From positions 416,001 to 480,000 of the forward strand of contig CBDBCF010000001.1 of NCBI GenBank assembly GCA_965202985.1: a stretch of 64,000 nucleotides of DNA. Reading direction: 5' to 3'. This stretch comes from Longimicrobiales bacterium. Lineage in GTDB: Bacteria > Gemmatimonadota > Gemmatimonadetes > Longimicrobiales > Gaopeijiaceae. Position 1 is the first letter of the stretch, and each line of letters begins with the position of its first letter. The notes beneath the pieces are model-generated. The model was not told the DNA's origin. It saw only the letters and a list, made by a program, of their open reading frames with translations, and ran no database searches. The position numbers and the translations under genes are program-made. Shown piece after piece: positions 6,384-62,233 of this stretch.

Positions 6384-6733
6384 CTATCGCTTCACAAGTC
6401 TTCCCAAGTAGATGTCTAGTATCGCTCGCGGACTAATCCTTTCTTGTCCGCGTCCATCCTCGGTTGGATCTGTGTCTGCTTCCGGTTCTATGCCTGCGTT
6501 CCGTAAGTCTCTAAGTCTGTCGTCATCAACATCACTACCAGAATAATATCTGTATCCCATCGGAAAAAAGATGTTGAGAAAATTCGTCATAATATCACTG
6601 GCCGTACCGGCCTTACTGATCATCGCACTGACTTGGCCATGAAAGATATCTTCCTCGCCTGGCTGAGGGCTTCTAGTAAGGCTATCGACAGCAGCGCGCA
6701 ACGCAACAAATGCATCAGGAAGAAAAATTCGAA
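6384..6733 (-). pseudogene. 3' remnant of an unknown low-GC gene truncated by ISL3
   Basis: Open frame of about 116 codons (LRIFLPDAFVALRAAVDSL...GRLVKR*) whose 5' part is cut off by the IS end at 6734. Confidence 0.5.
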
Positions 6734-8127
6734 GGCGCTTCCCCATATGGTGTGGGCTGTGTAGGATCAAGGGGCGACATGGACCATGAACCGAGGAGGC
6801 GAGGATGGAGATGCGGAAGTGGGTGGAGAGCTTGATGGCGTTGGGGCCGGGCTGGGAGGTGAAGGGGGTCGAGGAGGACCCGGTGCTGATGGAGGCGCGG
6901 GTGCGCGTGGCGAGGCGGACGGGCGAGCCGTTGACGTGTCCCGAGTGCGGCCGGCCGTGTCCGGGATACGACGCTCGGGAGCGGGAGTGGCGGCACCTGG
7001 ACGCTTGGGGCTACAAGACGTTCGTGGTCTGCGACCTGCCTCGGGTCGAGTGTCCGGAGCACGGGGTGCGGACGGCATCGATGCCCTGGGCGGCGGACAA
7101 GTCGAGGTACACGGCGGCGTTCGAGGAGGAGGTGACGGCGTGGCTCGGCGAGGCCAGCATCCTGGGGGTGTCGAAGCGCATGAGGATGAGCTGGAACGCT
7201 GTGAGCGGCATCATGGAGCGGGCGGTGCGCCGGGGGCTCGAGCGCCGGAAGGCGGAGCCGGTCCGGCGGCTGGCGGTGGACGAGACGTCGGTCAAGCGCG
7301 GACACCGGTACGCGACGATCGTGTCGGACACGGACACGGGGCGCGTGCTGCACGTGGCGAAGGGTCGGACCCGAGAGTCGCTGGCGCAGTTCTACCGGAG
7401 CAGGGACGGCGGCTGGCTGGCCGGGTTGGAGAGCGTGTCGATGGACATGTGGGGTCCCTACGTGGCGGCGACGGGGGAGTGGGTGCCGGGCGCGGAGCTG
7501 AAGACGGCGTTCGACCGCTTCCACGTGGCCAAGCACCTGGCGGACGCGGTGGACAAGGTGCGGCGCGCCGAGCACCGCGAGCTGCTGGCGCAGGGCAGCG
7601 CCGTGCTCGCGAGGACGCGCTACCGGTGGCTGACTGGACGCGGCAAGATGAGTCACGCCGAGAAGCTGGCGTTCGCGGCGCTGCGCAAGAACGTGGACCG
7701 GACCGCCCGCGCCTGGGCGGTGAAGGAGGCGGCATCGAAGCTGTGGGACTACAAGCTCCGGGGCTCGGCCGAGAACGCCTGGCTGCACTGGCTGCAATGG
7801 GCGTCGGGCTGCGGGCTCGCGCCCGTTCACAAGGTCGCCGAGATGGTCGGCGCCCACCTGTGGGGCATACTCAACGCCGTCGTGCTGCGAGCGACCAACG
7901 GCCCGGCCGAGAGCATCAACAGCAGGATCCAGATGGTCAAGGCCCGCAGCCGCGGCTTCCGCAACTACGACCGCTTCGTCACCGCCATCCTCTTCCACCT
8001 CGGCGGCCTCGACCTCTCGCCCCGCACCGCCCGCCGGTGACCCCGTAGACCCCTCGTCCCGCCTTCCTCGACAAGCGATGCTCAGCACCCTGCCCAACCG
8101 CGAACCCACTAGGTTAAGCGAAGAGCC
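6734..8127 (+). mobile_element. ISL3 family insertion sequence, copy 1 (1394 bp)
   Basis: Ends GGCGCTTCCCC... and ...AAGCGAAGAGCC (imperfect IRs). Near-identical to 10622-12015. Flanks AATTCGAA and AAATCCTT are not a duplication. Confidence 0.93.
6805..8040 (+). CDS. ISL3 family transposase
   Basis: zf-ISL3 CPECG...RVECPEHGV, LAVDE, MDMWGPY, DRFHV, TNGPAESINSRIQMVKARSRGFRN. Confidence 0.95.
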   Translation: MEMRKWVESLMALGPGWEVKGVEEDPVLMEARVRVARRTGEPLTCPECGRPCPGYDAREREWRHLDAWGYKTFVVCDLPRVECPEHGVRTASMPWAADKSRYTAAFEEEVTAWLGEASILGVSKRMRMSWNAVSGIMERAVRRGLERRKAEPVRRLAVDETSVKRGHRYATIVSDTDTGRVLHVAKGRTRESLAQFYRSRDGGWLAGLESVSMDMWGPYVAATGEWVPGAELKTAFDRFHVAKHLADAVDKVRRAEHRELLAQGSAVLARTRYRWLTGRGKMSHAEKLAFAALRKNVDRTARAWAVKEAASKLWDYKLRGSAENAWLHWLQWASGCGLAPVHKVAEMVGAHLWGILNAVVLRATNGPAESINSRIQMVKARSRGFRNYDRFVTAILFHLGGLDLSPRTARR

Positions 8128-10621: not shown

Positions 10622-12015
10622 GGCTCTTCGCTTAACCTAGTGGGTTCGCGGTTGGGCAGGGTGCTGAGCATCGCTTGTCGAGGAAGGCGGGACGAGGGGT
10701 CTATGGGGTCACCGGCGGGCGGTGCGGGGCGAGAGGTCGAGGCCGCCGAGGTGGAAGAGGATGGCGGTGACGAAGCGGTCGTAGTTGCGGAAGCCGCGGC
10801 TGCGGGCCTTGACCATCTGGATCCTGCTGTTGATGCTCTCGGCCGGGCCGTTGGTCGCTCGCAGCACGACGGCGTTGAGTATGCCCCACAGGTGGGCGCC
10901 GACCATCTCGGCGACCTTGTGAACGGGCGCGAGCCCGCAGCCCGACGCCCATTGCAGCCAGTGCAGCCAGGCGTTCTCGGCCGAGCCCCGGAGCTTGTAG
11001 TCCCACAGCTTCGATGCCGCCTCCTTCACCGCCCAGGCGCGGGCGGTCCGGTCCACGTTCTTGCGCAGCGCCGCGAACGCCAGCTTCTCGGCGTGACTCA
11101 TCTTGCCGCGTCCAGTCAGCCACCGGTAGCGCGTCCTCGCGAGCACGGCGCTGCCCTGCGCCAGCAGCTCGCGGTGCTCGGCGCGCCGCACCTTGTCCAC
11201 CGCGTCCGCCAGGTGCTTGGCCACGTGGAAGCGGTCGAACGCCGTCTTCAGCTCCGCGCCCGGCACCCACTCCCCCGTCGCCGCCACGTAGGGACCCCAC
11301 ATGTCCATCGACACGCTCTCCAACCCGGCCAGCCAGCCGCCGTCCCTGCTCCGGTAGAACTGCGCCAGCGACTCTCGGGTCCGACCCTTCGCCACGTGCA
11401 GCACGCGCCCCGTGTCCGTGTCCGACACGATCGTCGCGTACCGGTGTCCGCGCTTGACCGACGTCTCGTCCACCGCCAGCCGCCGGACCGGCTCCGCCTT
11501 CCGGCGCTCGAGCCCCCGGCGCACCGCCCGCTCCATGATGCCGCTCACAGCGTTCCAGCTCATCCTCATGCGCTTCGACACCCCCAGGATGCTGGCCTCG
11601 CCGAGCCACGCCGTCACCTCCTCCTCGAACGCCGCCGTGTACCTCGACTTGTCCGCCGCCCAGGGCATCGATGCCGTCCGCACCCCGTGCTCCGGACACT
11701 CGACCCGAGGCAGGTCGCAGACCACGAACGTCTTGTAGCCCCAAGCGTCCAGGTGCCGCCACTCCCGCTCCCGAGCGTCGTATCCCGGACACGGCCGGCC
11801 GCACTCGGGACACGTCAACGGCTCGCCCGTCCGCCTCGCCACGCGCACCCGCGCCTCCATCAGCACCGGGTCCTCCTCGACCCCCTTCACCTCCCAGCCC
11901 GGCCCCAACGCCATCAAGCTCTCCACCCACTTCCGCATCTCCATCCTCGCCTCCTCGGTTCATGGTCCATGTCGCCCCTTGATCCTACACAGCCCACACC
12001 ATATGGGGAAGCGCC
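10622..12015 (-). mobile_element. ISL3 family insertion sequence, copy 2 (1394 bp)
   Basis: Inverted near-identical copy of 6734-8127. 8-bp target duplication CGAAACTC (10614-10621) / CGAAACTT (12016-12023) with one mismatch. Confidence 0.95.
10709..11944 (-). CDS. ISL3 family transposase
   Basis: Protein identical to 6805..8040 in the ORF track. Confidence 0.95.
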   Translation of the reverse strand: MEMRKWVESLMALGPGWEVKGVEEDPVLMEARVRVARRTGEPLTCPECGRPCPGYDAREREWRHLDAWGYKTFVVCDLPRVECPEHGVRTASMPWAADKSRYTAAFEEEVTAWLGEASILGVSKRMRMSWNAVSGIMERAVRRGLERRKAEPVRRLAVDETSVKRGHRYATIVSDTDTGRVLHVAKGRTRESLAQFYRSRDGGWLAGLESVSMDMWGPYVAATGEWVPGAELKTAFDRFHVAKHLADAVDKVRRAEHRELLAQGSAVLARTRYRWLTGRGKMSHAEKLAFAALRKNVDRTARAWAVKEAASKLWDYKLRGSAENAWLHWLQWASGCGLAPVHKVAEMVGAHLWGILNAVVLRATNGPAESINSRIQMVKARSRGFRNYDRFVTAILFHLGGLDLSPRTARR

Positions 12016-23498: not shown

Positions 23499-25109
23499 TC
23501 ACATCCCCCAGACTTCGATCTCGACGCCGCTCTCCGCCCTTCGGCTCCGGCGAAAGACCTTCTCTTCCCAGCTGCGGCCCTCCCGGCGGTCGAAGACGAC
23601 CAGATGGCCGGCCTCCGCGTCGCAGCGGTCCATGTAGCCCGCCGTCTGCTCCACGCCGTCGGCGACGGTGCGCTCCAAGCTCGCGTGCAACACCTTGCAC
23701 TCGATCACGAACTTTTGCGTCCGGCCGGCTGGCGCGGCCCCCGAATCCAATTCGGCCCGGCCCTCCGGCCACGTCACCAACAGGTCCGTGCGCCCGCGTC
23801 CCAGCCCGTACTCCCGCTCGATCCGCCCACCGCTGTTGACGACCCTCTGCAAGAACGCCTGCAGGAGCAGCTGCGGTCCCGCCTCCTGGTACTGGAATCG
23901 TCCCGCCCAGTGCTCCGAGTGCTCCCGGAAGAACTGCTGGAACGCGGCCAGCAGCTTGTCCATCCGCAGGTTGCCCGAGTCGTCCACATACCATGTGATC
24001 TCGTCCGCCATCTCCTCTTGCGGCAACAACGAGAGCTCCCGAGGCACCACTTCGGCGTAGATCGGATTCGCCATTCGAACCGGCCGGTCCTGGGCGATCA
24101 AACCCAAGTCCCGAACGTACTCGACGTCGCGCAGGGCGAACCGCCGCTCGGGCGCGCCGGTCAGCAACGGTTCGACGACGCGGCGCACGCGGTCTTCCTG
24201 CAACTTGTCCGTCAACTGATCCAGATGGGTGTCCCGCCGAAGGATCAGCGCCTCCCGGGCCTCCAGCACGTCGGCTTCGGCTATCTGACGGGACCTGTCC
24301 TTTGCCGGGGCGCCGCGAAAGCAGGTCTGATAAGCGAGCGCATTGACCAGCCACGGCTGGCCCCTGGTCTGTGTCCAGACGGCCTTCATCGCATCGTCGG
24401 CGAAGGGCTGGCCCGTCTCCTCGGCGTGCTGCCGGAGCAATGCGCGCACTTCGTTCTTGGAGAAATCGCCCAGGCGCAACGACTCCGCCTTGATGTTGAA
24501 CGCGCTGCCGCCTGCGATCATGGTGTTGGCCGAGCCGGAACGGATGCGGTAGTCGCGCACGTCGCGCACGCCGCACAGCACCACGCTCTGGGGGAAGCCT
24601 CCGGGGCGCAGGTCGTACCCCGCGCGCAGTTGTCGCAGGACCGACAGGAGAGCGTCGCCCACGAGCGCGTCGATCTCGTCGATCAGGAGCACCAGCGGCT
24701 GGACGACGGCGCGGGCCCAGCGCGTCAACGCCTCGCGCAGGGCGCTGTCGGGACCGCGCTTCTCGAGGATTGCCGGCCAGATCTCCTCCAACGACTCGTC
24801 TCCAACCGCGTCGTAGGCCCGCGACGCGAGCTCGGCCAGCACGGTGCCCACGACCCGCGCCACGTCTTCTCGGGCCGGTTGCCCGGCTTCGACGTTGACG
24901 TAGACGCAACGGTAGCGACCCTCGGCGTTCAGCAGGTCTTGCAGCGCAAGCAACGCGGAGGTCTTGCCGGTCTGGCGCGGCGCATGGAGGACGAAGTAGC
25001 GATTCTGGGCGATCAGCCCTTGAATCTCTGCCAAGTTCACCCGGTCGAGAGGCGGAACGCAGTAGTGGTCGCTTGCCACCACCGGACCGGACGTGTTGAA
25101 GTAGCGCAT
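23499..25109 (-). CDS. AAA ATPase (AAA_35-like) with C-terminal PD-(D/E)xK nuclease-like domain
   Basis: MRYFNTSGP, Walker A APRQTGKTS, Walker B LLIDEID, SAFNIK, GQPWLVNAL, C-terminal REYGLGRGRTDLLV...VIECK. ATG overlaps the upstream stop (TGATG). Confidence 0.88.
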   Translation of the reverse strand: MRYFNTSGPVVASDHYCVPPLDRVNLAEIQGLIAQNRYFVLHAPRQTGKTSALLALQDLLNAEGRYRCVYVNVEAGQPAREDVARVVGTVLAELASRAYDAVGDESLEEIWPAILEKRGPDSALREALTRWARAVVQPLVLLIDEIDALVGDALLSVLRQLRAGYDLRPGGFPQSVVLCGVRDVRDYRIRSGSANTMIAGGSAFNIKAESLRLGDFSKNEVRALLRQHAEETGQPFADDAMKAVWTQTRGQPWLVNALAYQTCFRGAPAKDRSRQIAEADVLEAREALILRRDTHLDQLTDKLQEDRVRRVVEPLLTGAPERRFALRDVEYVRDLGLIAQDRPVRMANPIYAEVVPRELSLLPQEEMADEITWYVDDSGNLRMDKLLAAFQQFFREHSEHWAGRFQYQEAGPQLLLQAFLQRVVNSGGRIEREYGLGRGRTDLLVTWPEGRAELDSGAAPAGRTQKFVIECKVLHASLERTVADGVEQTAGYMDRCDAEAGHLVVFDRREGRSWEEKVFRRSRRAESGVEIEVWGM

Positions 25110-28042
25110 CAGGCGCGCGTGGCCTTTCCGCCGTGCACGGTGGGCTCGGCGCACCAGCTGCTCCGCAGCGCCGCCAAGCCGTCCAGAAGCTCCTCGGGCA
25201 GCCCCAGCACGTCCACCAGCAACGCCCGGTCCAGCTCCTGACGCACCGGGTCGCGGTACGCCTCGTTGGCAGGCAACATCTTGCGGTCGCGAAAGTCGGC
25301 GAACACGGCTTGGGCACGGGCCGACTGCTCCTCCGACAGCGCCCGCGCGTCAAGTGCAAGCAGCTCGGGCAGGCGACTGATCGTGAGCATCGCTCGTCCC
25401 TGTTGCTGACGCATGCCCAACCACCAGAAGCCGATCAACCCCAGCGTGCTGTTCGCCCAAAGCGCCAACGGCTTCTCCCACTCCGACCGATCGGCCACGA
25501 AGTTGGGCCACGCCCGGCCGCCGATGCTCTTCTCCGGCGTCAGGCAGGCGGCCAAGCTCTGAGAGTTGAGCTGAAAGTCCAAGTTGAAGTGCAACTGGGA
25601 CGCCGTCTTCTGCCACACGTCCACGGCCTGCGCTCCCTTGCCCTCCCGGACGACGCCCTCTCTGTCGGGAGCGACCACCAAGCGTCGTTCGCGGTCGGCG
25701 TCGTGAGCCCAAAGGACCGGGTACAACGGCTGGTCGCGCGCAACCAGAATGTCGAACGGACCCCTGGGCGCGCCACCGGGGTGCTTGCCCGAGATGTCCC
25801 GGTGAAGCAGCCCTCGCCTCCCAAGCCGGCCCAAGGGTGCGACCGGGACCGCGGGGCGTTCGCTTGTCCTGGGAAGCGCGAGCGTGCCCGCCCGAAGCGA
25901 CAGCATGGCCTCCGCCAGCGTCGGCTCCCGCAACGCCGCGCATCCGCCCTCCGCCAACGGCGCGCGAACGAAGCTGCCGGCGTCGTCGGCATCGCCCAGC
26001 TTCAGCCGTCCGCTTCGGCGCTGCGGGTCGATCCGCCGCACGACGTCGGCCAGCACCGCCGCCTCCCCCAGCGTGCGCGGACGGCGAAGCAGGTTGATGA
26101 AGAGGGCGTCTCCCGACTCCGAATCCGCTTCGGCGCTGCGCTTCCTGGTGCCGACGACCAGCGCTTCCGCCATTCCCGTGTCCGCCGAGAACGCCCGCTC
26201 CGTCTTGCCGCTGGCCGCGATCGACACCACCAACACATCCTCATAGTGGCGGGCCAGCAGGACCCGGGCCGCCTTCCACGAACCGCCCTGCACGAAGGCG
26301 GCAGGCAACACCAAGGCTACTACCCCACCGGGCTTCGTCTTCACATGAGCCAAGTCCACGAAGTACGACGCCAGCCCCGCGTTTCCCGCCCCGGCCGGTG
26401 CGTCCAGCCCTTTTCGCAGCCGGGCGAGCTTGCCCGACATGGCCTTCTGCTCGGCTTGCGACGTCTCGAAGCCCGCGAACGACGGCACCGGGATCGTCGT
26501 GGACTCGTGGTTGGTGGGCCGCGTGAACGGGGGATTCATGATCAGCAGGTCGCCGCTCTGGTCGGAAAGGTCCACCACGTGCGGGTCGGCGGCCTCTTCG
26601 GCCTCGCCTGTGCCGCGAACCTGCTTGCGGCCCGTGCCGAAGGCGTCGATCTGCAGGCTTGGGCCCGTGCCCATCAGGGATCGCGCCGACTCCTGGCCCA
26701 AGAGGTCCAGCGATCCGATGGAGAGCGGGCGGCCCGTTTCCGACGGCTGCTCCCCATAGGGCATCGTCACGATGCGCGTGCCGCCGAAGGGGACGGTCGG
26801 ATGAGCGCCCGATAGGATCGAGGCCGTCAGGTGCGTTGCGGCTGGCATGATGTCCGCCGCGATCAAGGCCCCCTCCATCATCCCGGCATGGATGTGCTGG
26901 TCGTCTCCGGCGGCGCGGCGGTGACGGGCGCGGACCGATTGGTAGGCGGCGTTCAACAGGGTGCCGGTCCCGCACGCCAAATCGGCGATCCGCAGTCCGC
27001 ACACGTCCTCAGGAGTGCCCCACTCCACGTCCAGGCGCGGAACCGACAGCTCCGACAACAGCGTCGCCGATGCCGGCAAGGTGTAGAAGGTGGCCAAGAA
27101 CTTCCGGTCCACGATCAGACGCTGGAACATCTGGCCCGACAAGTCGTGCGTCCCCGCCGCGCCTATCTGGGCCAAGCTCCTTGCCGCGGGCACCAGTCTG
27201 TTCAGGATCACGCACCCAAGGTCAACGGGAAACGGCCGCAGCAGGTCGGTGGCTATCTTGAAGATTGGCCAGTAGTTGATCTCGCGCAGGATTCTGCGCC
27301 AGCAGTCCAGGACCAGGGCCTTGTCGAAGTTGCCCGTGTTCTGGAAGCGCAAGTCGTCGAGCGGCGAAATGTCGTGGGAACCCTCGATCGTCACGTGAAA
27401 GGTGAGCGCGTTGGCGACGATCGCCATCGCCATCCGCGTGGTCTGCTCGCTCGGCTCCTGGTGCAGCACGGCGGAGATGCGGTCCAGCGTATTCTTTTTC
27501 TGCCACCGCACGAGTTCTTCCAGTCGGAACGCCGCTTGCCGGACCGCGACTTCGAGGATCTCGGTACCCTCGGCGACTTTCCGTTCCGACAGGGCCGCGT
27601 GTTCGATGCACGCCGCCAAGTCGTTCGCATCTCCGTCCAGCCAGCCTGCCTCCGGCCACCGGACGGGCGCTTCGGGCTCGCCCGCCAAGACGGCGTAGCG
27701 ATATCGAGCTTCCGCGACTCGGTTGGCAAGTGCTCCCTGGCCGGTCCGAAGTTCGCGCGGCAATAGAACGGCGATCGCCTGTTCCACAACCTCGCCGGGC
27801 CTGTCCATGACTTGCCCCAGCCGAGCGCACGCGTCCTGTTCGACTGTCGCCCCAGGCGCGAACTCCGTCTCAACGACAACGACTTGGCCGCCGGGGTGAC
27901 GGACTACGATGTCAGGGCGCCTCGCCGCCTCCCGCAGGACGCGCGACTGCTCCACGCCAATTCCGTCCCGCCAAGCCGGGTGCTTCGTGCGCAGGAGATC
28001 GCCCAGCTGCACGTTGACGGTTGCTTCGCTGTTGGTCGGCAT
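25109..28042 (-). CDS. Type IIG-like restriction-modification fusion (nuclease + N6-adenine methyltransferase + target recognition region)
   Basis: N-terminal RRPDIVV...VVETEF, FYT motif X, motif I IADLACGTGTLL, motif IV IMNPPF (gamma order), long C-terminal TRD-like region. Confidence 0.85.
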   Translation of the reverse strand: MPTNSEATVNVQLGDLLRTKHPAWRDGIGVEQSRVLREAARRPDIVVRHPGGQVVVVETEFAPGATVEQDACARLGQVMDRPGEVVEQAIAVLLPRELRTGQGALANRVAEARYRYAVLAGEPEAPVRWPEAGWLDGDANDLAACIEHAALSERKVAEGTEILEVAVRQAAFRLEELVRWQKKNTLDRISAVLHQEPSEQTTRMAMAIVANALTFHVTIEGSHDISPLDDLRFQNTGNFDKALVLDCWRRILREINYWPIFKIATDLLRPFPVDLGCVILNRLVPAARSLAQIGAAGTHDLSGQMFQRLIVDRKFLATFYTLPASATLLSELSVPRLDVEWGTPEDVCGLRIADLACGTGTLLNAAYQSVRARHRRAAGDDQHIHAGMMEGALIAADIMPAATHLTASILSGAHPTVPFGGTRIVTMPYGEQPSETGRPLSIGSLDLLGQESARSLMGTGPSLQIDAFGTGRKQVRGTGEAEEAADPHVVDLSDQSGDLLIMNPPFTRPTNHESTTIPVPSFAGFETSQAEQKAMSGKLARLRKGLDAPAGAGNAGLASYFVDLAHVKTKPGGVVALVLPAAFVQGGSWKAARVLLARHYEDVLVVSIAASGKTERAFSADTGMAEALVVGTRKRSAEADSESGDALFINLLRRPRTLGEAAVLADVVRRIDPQRRSGRLKLGDADDAGSFVRAPLAEGGCAALREPTLAEAMLSLRAGTLALPRTSERPAVPVAPLGRLGRRGLLHRDISGKHPGGAPRGPFDILVARDQPLYPVLWAHDADRERRLVVAPDREGVVREGKGAQAVDVWQKTASQLHFNLDFQLNSQSLAACLTPEKSIGGRAWPNFVADRSEWEKPLALWANSTLGLIGFWWLGMRQQQGRAMLTISRLPELLALDARALSEEQSARAQAVFADFRDRKMLPANEAYRDPVRQELDRALLVDVLGLPEELLDGLAALRSSWCAEPTVHGGKATRA

Positions 28043-60171: not shown

Positions 60172-60219
60172 TTGGACCTGGCCAGCGCTTCGTTCGGTCC
60201 TGCGCCCAGCGCGGGAAAG

Positions 60220-60293
60220 TGCCGGAGGAGGGACTCGAACCCCCGACACGCGGATTATGATTCCGCTGCTCTAACCAGCTGAGCTACTCCGGC
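60220..60293 (-). tRNA. tRNA-Met (CAT), elongator type, CCA not encoded
   Basis: GCCGGAGTAGCTCAGCTGGTTAGAGCAGCGGAATCATAATCCGCGTGTCGGGGGTTCGAGTCCCTCCTCCGGCA. Full cloverleaf with paired 1:72 and no 3GC initiator stem. Confidence 0.95.
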
Positions 60294-60303
60294 GGGGGAA
60301 GGG

Positions 60304-60332
60304 AAGCTCCCAACGCCGGGCGCGACTGTCAA
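60304..60332 (-). promoter_or_regulatory. Putative sigma70 promoter for tRNA-Met
   Basis: Minus strand TTGACA-N17-GAGCTT ending about 10 bp before the tRNA. Confidence 0.55.
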
Positions 60333-60335
60333 GCC

Positions 60336-60367
60336 GAGGGCGACCCGTCAGGAGGGCGACCCGTCAG
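60336..60367. repeat. 16-bp tandem duplication
   Basis: GAGGGCGACCCGTCAG x2, immediately upstream of the tRNA -35 box. Confidence 0.85.
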
Positions 60368-60587
60368 GCCGACGGTCGGGTGCCCAACCCGGAGTGCTGG
60401 GGTCGTTCGCGACCGGGGCTGGCGGCCACGCGTCGCGCGCGTGCAAGCGAGGGCAGCGTGCCCACGATGACCCCGCGAGCGACCAGGTCGAGAATCCCCA
60501 AGCGCTGCGCGTGCGAGCGAAAGGATTCCGCGCCTTGCAACCGTCAACAGGTTGCGCAAGGTTCTTTGCACCAAGGGAGGCGTCCGG

Positions 60588-62233
60588 ATGCGGGAGTTCA
60601 ACACGGAAGGTCCGGTGGTGGCGGAAGACCACTACCACATCCCTCCTCTCGACCGCGCGAACCCTGCCGAGATCCAGCGGTTGCTGGCCCGGAAGCGCTA
60701 CTTCGTACTCCATGCGCCTCGGCAGACCGGGAAGACATCTGCTCTTCTGGCGTTGCAGGGCCTGCTGAACGCGCGGGGCGACTACTTGGTGTGGTGCGTG
60801 ACCAGCACCGAGGCGTCGGGGCCTGCTGAACGCGCGGGGCGACTACCGTTGCGTCTACGTCAACGTGGAAGGCGTGACAACGGCCCGCGAAGACGTGGAA
60901 GCTGCCGTCCGCACCGTCCTCAGCGAGCTGGCCGAAGCCGCTCGCGACACGCTGGGAGACGACTTCCTTGCCGAGACTTGGCCCGCCGTGCTGGCCAAGA
61001 GCGGCGGACACAGCGCATTGCGGGTGGCGCTGACTCGTTGGGCGCGGAACAGCGACCGACCGCTGGTCCTGCTCCTCGACGAGATCGACGCGCTGGTGGG
61101 CGACTCGCTCTTGTCGGTGTTGCGACAACTCCGGGCAGGCTACCACCTGCGCCCCGCGGGCTTCCCCCAGAGCGTGGTCCTGTGCGGCGTCCGGGACGTG
61201 CGCGACTACCGCATCCGCTCCGGTTCGGCGAACACGATGGTCGCCGGAGGCAGCGCCTTCAACATCAAGGCCGAGTCGTTGCGCTTGGGCGACTTCTCCC
61301 CGGACGAAGTGCGCGACCTGCTCGGACAGCATACCGCCGAAACCGGCCAGCCGTTCACCGATGGCGCGTTGGGCGCGGTCCGGACGCAGACCCAGGGCCA
61401 GCCCTGGCTCGTCAACGCACTGGCCTACCATGCGTGCTTCCGCGGCGAGCTGGCGAAGGACAGGTCGCGCGCCGTGACCGAAGCCGATGTGCTTGACGCC
61501 CGGGAAGCGTTGATCCTGCGTCGCGACACCCACCTGGACCAGCTCACCGACAAGCTGCGCGAGGACCGCGTCTGGCGGGTCGTGGAGCCGATCCTGACCG
61601 GCGCCGGCGAGTCGTCCTACACCGCTCGGGACGTGGAGTACATCCGAGACCTGGGGCTGATCGCCCGCGATCCGCCGGTCCGCATCGCCAACCCCATCTA
61701 CGCCGAGGTCGTGCCTCGGGAGCTGACTTGGTTGGCCCAGGACGACCTGCCCCACGATCCGGCCTGGTACGTGGACGCCTCCGGCGCACTGCTGCTGGGC
61801 AAGCTGTTGGAGGGCGTTTCAGCAGTTCTACCGCGAGAACTCGGAGCACTGGGTCGAGCGCTACGGCTTCAAGGAGGCGGGACCGCAGCTGCTCTTGCAG
61901 GCGTTCTTGCAGAGGGTCGTCAACAGCGGCGGGCGGATCGAACGGGAGTATGCGCTGGGGACGGGTCGCACCGACTTGCTGATCGTCTGGCCGGAAGGCG
62001 ACGCGGTGCGCCGGTACGTGGTCGAGTGCAATGTTCGCCACGAGCGTCGGGGCCTGGAGCGCACCGTGGCCGAGGGCGTGGAGCAGACGACGGTGTACCT
62101 GGATCGATGCGGCGCCGAGGCCGGGCACTTGGTCGTTTTCGACCGCGACCAAGGGCGCAGTTGGGACGAGAAGGTGTTTCGCGGCAAGCACACCACCGAG
62201 AGCGGCGTCGAGATCGCGGTGTGGGGGATGTGA
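60588..62233 (+). pseudogene. AAA ATPase-PD-(D/E)xK paralogue of 23499..25109, frameshifted twice
   Basis: MREFNTEGP..APRQTGKTS. A net 61-bp insertion at 60786-60846 and an extra G at 61812-61814 break the frame. C-terminal VECN replaces the paralogue's IECK. Confidence 0.9.
60758..60846. repeat. 28-bp direct repeat - 33-bp unique insert - 28-bp direct repeat (CRISPR-like single unit)
   Basis: GGGCCTGCTGAACGCGCGGGGCGACTAC at 60758-60785 and 60819-60846, flanking TTGGTGTGGTGCGTGACCAGCACCGAGGCGTCG. Confidence 0.95.

What the first reader, a model, noticed from the sequence alone, without database searches (positions are those of the whole stretch)
60758..60846. Scar with type I-E CRISPR geometry (28-bp duplication + 33-bp insert) inside a gene: candidate natural off-target Cas1-Cas2 integration (neo-CRISPR)
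Seen: a perfect 28-bp direct repeat flanks a 33-bp unique sequence, a 61-bp period. Removing one repeat plus the insert restores the frame (QGLLNARGDYRCVYVNVE, against QDLLNAEGRYRCVYVNVE in the intact paralogue at about 24.9 kb). So the repeat is duplicated host coding sequence and the 33-mer is the inserted piece. Established: E. coli-type I-E Cas1-Cas2 integrates 33-bp prespacers, duplicates 28 bp of target, and can do so at repeat-like off-target sites. Seen: the reverse complement of the duplicated site, GTAGTCGCCCCGCGCGTTCAGCAGGCCC, resembles the first half of I-E repeats (GT..TCCCCGCGC...). Inference: a fixed ectopic spacer acquisition knocked out a putative defence ATPase-nuclease gene, i.e. 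CRISPR adaptation acting as an insertional mutagen. IS target duplications are much shorter, and simple slippage would not add unique sequence.
Basis: partly seen in the sequence, partly recalled or inferred. Interest (0 to 1): 0.9.

Follow-up and report, generated by a model that had tools for sequence, protein, structure and literature searches.

The report
Misplaced CRISPR spacer inside a gene
A 61-base insertion in a broken gene of a sponge-associated bacterium looks like a CRISPR memory unit pasted in the wrong place by a CRISPR system whose genes this genome no longer seems to carry, a natural case of a misfire known mainly from the laboratory.

Summary
The 28+33+28 unit is real. Contigs from 3 of 4 runs (two studies) span it without mismatch; a related strain in the fourth carries the empty site with one 28-mer. 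Best reading (about 0.85): off-target integration by type I-E Cas1-Cas2. Read forward, the I-E ruler motif GCGGG ends exactly 8 nt before the insert, as measured in E. coli; only 1 of 22 paralogous sites examined has this, the inserted one. The genome has no I-E genes, only type I-G with 69-75-bp periods, but keeps one I-E repeat where a congener has an I-E array; 2 of 3 congeners have I-E systems with 28/33 arrays. Against: no protospacer or PAM found, 13/28 identity to the repeat, no first inverted repeat, no leader, and a second 31+32 unit that fits no array seen. The gene has two further lesions, so 'knocked out by the spacer' is not shown. A new member of a known kind (neo-CRISPR); this scan noted similar scars before in other genomes.

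The parts
60758..60785 (+). Copy 1 of the duplicated 28-bp target (host coding sequence); begins with G and ends with C, like the I-E repeat
   Evidence: single copy in the empty allele of run X5
60773..60777 (+). GCGGG at positions 16-20 of the target, 8 nt before the insert: the I-E IR2 ruler anchor in register
   Evidence: rule from PMC5039180; same position in the relic repeat and the congeners' repeats
60786..60818 (+). 33-bp unique insert, the presumed spacer; source not found; no terminal inverted repeats
   Evidence: searches
60819..60846 (+). Copy 2 of the duplicated 28-bp target
60588..62233 (+). Pseudogene of an AAA-ATPase with a C-terminal nuclease-like domain, one of about two dozen paralogues; after 66 native codons the frame runs through the insert and out of frame to a stop at 61496
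   Evidence: (AAA_22 weak on the middle piece); the nuclease label rests on a recalled PD-(D/E)XK-type motif, no family hit
61810..61812 (+). Second lesion: one extra base in a G run, shifting the frame before the nuclease-like domain
   Evidence: 4 of 4 paralogues lack it; kept in part of the depth of X1 and X2; an X5 contig with 2 other letters lacks it
62030..62032 (+). Third lesion: Asn where 15 of 16 captured motifs of this family in the genome have Lys (E-C-K)
   Evidence: (X1 and X2 contigs agree with the window, X5 has G at 62032 in 26.9 of 26.9 depth)
60219..60293 (-). tRNA-Met beside the gene (context only)
23499..25154 (-). Intact paralogue used for comparison (AAA_22, E 3.3e-10)

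Best explanation
A type I-E Cas1-Cas2 integrase, present in an ancestor of this strain, inserted a 33-bp prespacer at a chromosomal site that mimics half of its repeat. One prespacer end was joined at the G that starts the 28-mer; the other was joined on the opposite strand 8 nt past the GCGGG anchor; gap filling duplicated the 28 bases between. The result is a one-spacer neo-CRISPR inside an ATPase-nuclease gene. The I-E genes were later lost or are unassembled; one I-E repeat survives at the CRISPR locus. The unit is most likely inert. Shown: the insertion, its sizes, the empty allele, the motif register, the relic repeat, I-E systems with matching sizes in congeners. Inferred: the enzyme, the order of events, the foreign origin of the insert.
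For: (1) Empty allele with one 28-mer in run X5; filled allele in X1, X2, X10. (2) Sizes equal the congeners' I-E arrays: 28-bp repeat, 51 of 52 and 33 of 34 spacers of 33 nt, beside I-E operons (7 proteins scanned in G001, 4 in G002). (3) GCGGG ends 8 nt before the insert, the rule measured in E. coli (PMC5039180). Chance about 0.7% for either orientation, about 0.1% with the terminal G and C, which match the G preferred as acceptor by E. coli Cas1 (PMC4574026). (4) 1 of 22 equivalent paralogue sites in this genome and 0 of 8 distinct sites in congener loci carry the motif in register; the one is the inserted copy, which is also the closest to the repeat (13 of 28; others 5-11). (5) One I-E repeat, 27 of 28 identical to both congeners' repeats, lies at G000:C2:294418-294445, at the position and on the strand of a decayed I-E array of G002. 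(6) The first base T occurs in 4 of 52 and 2 of 34 congener spacers. (7) A site only 43% identical to the repeat supported full-site integration in P. furiosus in vitro (PMC6698737).
Against: No protospacer, hence no PAM (best 27 of 33 among 95 loci; 0 of 200 other family genomes at up to 3 mismatches). No I-E cas2, cas7 or other I-E gene in this 92%-complete assembly. Overall identity to the repeat is 13 of 28, reached by about 3% of genomic 28-mers. The first inverted repeat is missing, and E. coli lost about 100-fold of its adaptation when either one was mutated. No leader-like sequence upstream, and C rather than the preferred G at -2. A second exact duplication around a unique insert (31+32 bp, G000:C1:962983) fits no array seen in the genus, so another route to such units may exist. 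No second 28+33 scar was seen in G000 or, by a restricted pattern read by eye, in G001-G003.
Confidence: 0.85

Rival explanations
1. A repair or recombination accident: staggered nicks or a template switch captured a stray 33-bp fragment and duplicated 28 bases; sizes and motif are coincidence.
For: The genome holds a second unit of similar size (31+32 bp) with no matching CRISPR geometry. No I-E genes in the assembly. No protospacer found.
Against: The insert is not copied from nearby: longest shared stretch with 300 bases either side is 8 nt, as for control spacers (7-8 nt in 65 of 86). Both lengths must hit the congeners' values, and the motif must fall in register (about 0.7%), in the only one of 22 paralogue sites that has it.
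Confidence: 0.08
2. Remnant of an integrated mobile element (IS, MITE, prophage, casposon): the 28-mers are its attachment sites or target duplication and all but 33 bp was deleted.
For: The gene sits beside a tRNA in a lineage-specific slot. Long direct repeats flank integrated elements (general knowledge).
Against: No terminal inverted repeats in the insert and no second copy in the genome. The casposase studied in PMC5137440 makes 15-bp duplications, once 22. The only cas1 here is the I-G one. A deletion leaving exactly 33 bp with both repeats perfect is an extra coincidence.
Confidence: 0.04
3. Off-target integration by the genome's present type I-G Cas4/Cas1/Cas2.
For: It is the only adaptation module in the assembly, with a long array (133 repeats matched).
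Against: Its array has 36-37-bp repeats and periods of 69-75 bp, not 28 and 61. No I-G-sized scar was seen outside the array.
Confidence: 0.02
4. Assembly or chimeric-read artefact.
For: None beyond the genome being a metagenome assembly.
Against: Contigs from three runs in two studies span the unit without a difference.
Confidence: 0.01

Closest known systems
Non-canonical (off-target) spacer integration giving neo-CRISPR loci in E. coli type I-E (Nivala, Shipman and Church 2018; not held; known here from passages of 10.1101/148544, PMC7054753 and PMC11788318)
   Same: Spacer-length insert with a repeat-length duplication at a partly repeat-like chromosomal site outside the array.
   Different: I could not compare with that paper's off-target consensus.
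Type I-E repeat rulers (Goren et al. 2016, PMC5039180)
   Same: Insertion 8 nt after GCGGG; 28-bp duplication.
   Different: The IR1 anchor (CCCCGCG, 16 nt) and the leader are absent; there both inverted repeats were needed for efficient adaptation.
Orphan or isolated CRISPR arrays (three proposed origins incl. off-target acquisition, as summarised in PMC13142298; Shmakov et al. 2020 not held)
   Same: Repeat-spacer-repeat far from cas genes.
   Different: The repeat is host coding sequence, 13 of 28 like the true repeat, with no I-E hairpin (fold z -0.82) and only one spacer.
Casposon integration (PMC5137440)
   Same: Cas1-family enzyme making a target duplication.
   Different: Duplication of 15 bp there, terminal inverted repeats on the element; neither here.

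Membership tests
Off-target type I-E integration product (neo-CRISPR) | Insertion into a site that pre-exists as a single copy | tested here: met
   Empty allele in X5; 4 of 4 aligned paralogues lack the 61 bases
Off-target type I-E integration product (neo-CRISPR) | Duplication and insert lengths equal the cognate repeat and spacer | tested here: met
   28 and 33, as in G001 and G002 arrays
Off-target type I-E integration product (neo-CRISPR) | IR2 anchor GCGGG 8 nt before the insert | tested here: met
Off-target type I-E integration product (neo-CRISPR) | G as acceptor base at both ends of the target | tested here: met
   G...C ends; weak, about 12% by chance; preference from PMC4574026
Off-target type I-E integration product (neo-CRISPR) | Cognate Cas1-Cas2 in the lineage | tested here: inconclusive
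   Absent from this assembly; present in 2 of 3 congeners; relic repeat here
Off-target type I-E integration product (neo-CRISPR) | Insert matches a protospacer flanked by the system's PAM | tested here: inconclusive
   No protospacer found
Off-target type I-E integration product (neo-CRISPR) | Cas1-Cas2 integrates at this site | not testable with these tools
   needs an in vitro or in vivo assay
Canonical type I-E CRISPR array | Repeat with both inverted repeats forming a hairpin | tested here: not met
   IR1 absent; fold z -0.82
Canonical type I-E CRISPR array | Leader upstream and cas operon nearby | tested here: not met
   Upstream is coding sequence unlike the congeners' leaders, by eye; no I-E genes
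IS, MITE or casposon remnant | Terminal inverted repeats and further copies | tested here: not met
Known anti-phage defence system (host gene) | Match to a PADLOC model | tested here: not met
   0 families for the intact paralogue and two pieces at E 0.01

The most novel reading that the evidence does not exclude
The scar is a fossil of a type I-E system that this lineage has since lost, and it shows that in nature half a repeat (the GCGGG anchor plus the terminal bases) without leader or first inverted repeat is enough for full-site integration, so that the integrase picked out the one paralogue of a large gene family with that half-site and killed it. On this reading the 31+32 unit at G000:C1:962983 is a second scar (33-bp spacer, 30-bp duplication at a palindrome with a longer loop), and such scars can be used to read off lost CRISPR types and real off-target rules from genomes.
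Probability: 0.3. Interest if true: 0.65.

Novelty: new member of a known kind. Interest (0 to 1): 0.5.

Why it matters
Off-target spacer integration is known mainly from over-expression in E. coli and from in vitro work; a 2018 preprint calls its natural frequency unclear, with circumstantial evidence in two species (10.1101/148544). This case has both alleles in natural populations, an exact fit to a measured ruler, a built-in control of 21 uninserted paralogue sites, and a relic of the system that could have made it. It supports CRISPR adaptation as an occasional insertional mutagen and gives a defined natural substrate for asking how little of a repeat the integrase needs. It is one event, probably inert, and not a new mechanism.

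Tried and rejected
Source of the insert: exact 33-mer absent from viral and metagenome contigs; a wobble-tolerant pattern for one reading frame absent from viral, metagenome and genome contigs; both 21-base ends absent from viral contigs; 16-22-base parts gave 95 loci, best 27 of 33, judged chance or a common coding motif; phage and plasmid BLAST best E 4 and 0.02; 0 of 200 other family genomes. An 18-nt exact match at G000:C1:130043 does not extend; 1 of 86 control spacers reaches that length, so it is left as a weak lead. The PAM could not be derived: 86 congener spacers gave only 3 partial hits in G000. Further scars: none of 61-bp period in G000, none of I-G size (23 clusters read by eye), none among the 32 pattern matches in G001-G003 (read by eye; the pattern excludes sites with A at position 22 or without G at position 1), none in the congener loci scanned. 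The N-terminal piece scanned was in the wrong frame, so its blank says nothing. PMC8616872 had no passage on off-target integration. Paper searches listed no report of a natural gene-disrupting case with both alleles, but the two key papers are not held, so this is no proof that none is in print.

Full report
Observation. The window has an exact 28-bp direct repeat at 60758-60785 and 60819-60846 around 33 unique bases. The bases outside the copies differ on both sides, so 28 and 33 are fixed. In the 3.86-Mb assembly (G000, 2 contigs, 92% complete) it is the only two-copy unit of 61-bp period outside the CRISPR array, even at 23 of 28 identity. It lies in one of about two dozen paralogous AAA-ATPase genes (31 tblastn segments at E below 1e-20; AAA_22 in the intact copy) and adds exactly 61 bases against 4 of 4 aligned paralogues.

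Both alleles exist in nature. Of 11 runs listed 4 were laid; all are contigs, not reads. X1 and X2 (study P1) and X10 (study P5) each have one contig across the unit with no difference. X5 (study P2), a related strain, has a joint from 60757 to 60819 that skips 61 bases with 28 fitting on either side, at depth 30.6. The 28-mer is thus host sequence that was duplicated when 33 bases went in. X1, X2 and X5 are labelled sponge metagenome; one run may be the source of the assembly.

Which integrase. G000 has one cas1, in a type I-G operon (Cas3g, Csb2, Csb1, Cas4) whose array has 36-37-bp repeats and periods of 69-75 bp: the wrong size. It has no I-E cas2 or cas7, and seven I-E proteins of G001 found only a weak hit to the I-G cas3. 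But I-E cas2 was found in 2 of 3 congeners, 0 of 21 other genomes of the family and 1 of 16 of the order. Both congeners have I-E operons and arrays with a 28-bp repeat and 33-nt spacers (51 of 52 and 33 of 34). G000 itself keeps one I-E repeat, 27 of 28 identical to both, beyond the far end of its I-G array (C2:294418-294445). DNA next to the I-E operons of both congeners matches the two flanks of G000's CRISPR locus, and G002 has a decayed six-repeat I-E array at the position and on the strand of the relic. The simplest reading is that this lineage had a I-E system at this locus and lost its genes (inference; unassembled genes cannot be excluded).

Does the site look like a target. Overall identity to the I-E repeat is modest: 13 of 28 forward, 12 of 28 reversed; about 3% of genomic 28-mers reach 13. 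The position of the matches is what counts. Goren et al. (PMC5039180; parts 1 and 2 of 4 read) showed that E. coli I-E inserts the spacer 8 nt after GCGGG (IR2) or 16 nt after CCCCGCG (IR1). GCGGG in that register occurs at about 0.7% of sites in either orientation, about 0.1% with the terminal G and C; E. coli Cas1 prefers G at the acceptor base (PMC4574026, passages). The paralogues give a control: of 22 equivalent sites captured in G000 only the inserted one has the motif in register, and 0 of 8 distinct sites in the congener loci fetched (11 rows, 3 duplicates dropped). Full-site integration at a site 43% like the repeat is reported in vitro for P. furiosus (PMC6698737, passages).

Against. 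No protospacer was found in viral, metagenome or genome contigs, phage or plasmid records, or 200 other family genomes, so the PAM is untested; the insert's first base, T, is among those seen in congener spacers but is a minority (6 of 86). IR1 is missing, and mutating either inverted repeat cut adaptation about 100-fold in E. coli. There is no leader, and the -2 base is C, not the preferred G. A second exact duplication around a unique insert exists at G000:C1:962983 (31+32 bp, in frame, absent from three tandem paralogues). It fits no array seen in the genus. Either another process makes units of about this size, which weakens the argument from size, or it is a second, mis-measured scar: read as 30+33 it keeps G...C ends and has CCCG at position 7 as the relic repeat does, with CGGG 7 rather than 8 nt from the end. 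I cannot tell which.

The gene. It also has an extra base at about 61812 and Asn for the Lys kept in 15 of 16 captured motifs. X1 and X2 support all three lesions; X5 appears to have none. No allele with only some of them could be shown, so the order is unknown and 'knocked out by the spacer' is possible, not shown. The family has no PADLOC match; its nuclease domain is named from a recalled motif, and a defence role is untested. In all three congeners the slot next to tRNA-Met lacks this gene, so the copy is lineage-specific.

Mechanism and function. Most likely (0.85) a I-E Cas1-Cas2 carrying a 33-bp prespacer joined one end at the first G of the 28-mer and the other on the opposite strand 8 nt past GCGGG; repair of the gaps duplicated the 28 bases. 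Shown: sizes, empty allele, register, relic, congeners' systems. Inferred: enzyme, timing, foreign origin. The unit is unlikely to work as an array: no I-E hairpin (fold z -0.82), no leader, no I-E genes, one spacer only.

What is known. Off-target integration giving neo-CRISPR loci was shown in E. coli with over-produced Cas1-Cas2 (Nivala et al. 2018; not held; seen only through passages of 10.1101/148544, PMC7054753 and PMC11788318). It is one of three proposed origins of isolated arrays (PMC13142298, passages; Shmakov et al. 2020 not held). Host factors suppress it in other systems (PMC13769266, passages). Casposase duplications are shorter (PMC5137440, passages). The scan's own index has 79 notes in at least 53 genomes that hold my search words, two of the eight shown with the same 28+33 sizes; these are unchecked AI notes and not support. 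They prompted the search for I-G-sized scars, which found none.

Verdict. Real, and best filed as a natural off-target type I-E integration: a new member of a known kind. Its value lies in the evidence around it (both alleles, exact ruler fit, paralogue control, relic of the lost system), not in a new mechanism. Interest 0.5.

Noticed in passing
G000:C1:962983-963076 (L004): Second exact duplication (31 bp) around a unique 32-bp insert, in frame, in one of four tandem paralogous genes; the other three lack the 63 bases. The target holds a short inverted repeat; it may be a 30+33 Cas1-type scar or have another origin.
   Followed up: partly
G000:C2:293900-294900 (L002:9900-10900): Beyond the end of the I-G array lie a roughly 230-bp tail in two diverged copies and, between them, a lone I-E repeat, 33-37 unique bases and a decayed I-G repeat: traces of two CRISPR types succeeding each other at one locus (read by eye).
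   Followed up: partly
L010:4141-4460 (G002): Decayed, reverse-oriented six-repeat I-E array upstream of cas3, syntenic with the lone repeat of G000.
   Followed up: yes
G000, genome-wide: About two dozen paralogues of the ATPase-nuclease gene, several in tandem and several broken; many copies also in the congeners. No PADLOC match.
   Followed up: partly
window 60219-62233: The slot between tRNA-Met and the next conserved gene is empty in G001, G002 and G003, so this paralogue is a lineage-specific arrival.
   Followed up: partly
L008:17300-17600 (G001): The distal end of the G001 I-E array is interrupted by about 200 bp of other sequence before two more repeats; possibly a mobile-element remnant.
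   Followed up: no
window 60786-60817, minus strand: One frame of the insert reads like protein and resembles a stretch of ATPase-like genes hit; the family label is recalled and the likeness is too short to name a source.
   Followed up: partly
window 6700-8050 and 10700-12000: Two sets of ORFs with the same lengths in opposite orientation (420, 411, 147, 108, 103 aa) suggest an inverted duplicate of about 1.3 kb, perhaps an IS pair.
   Followed up: no
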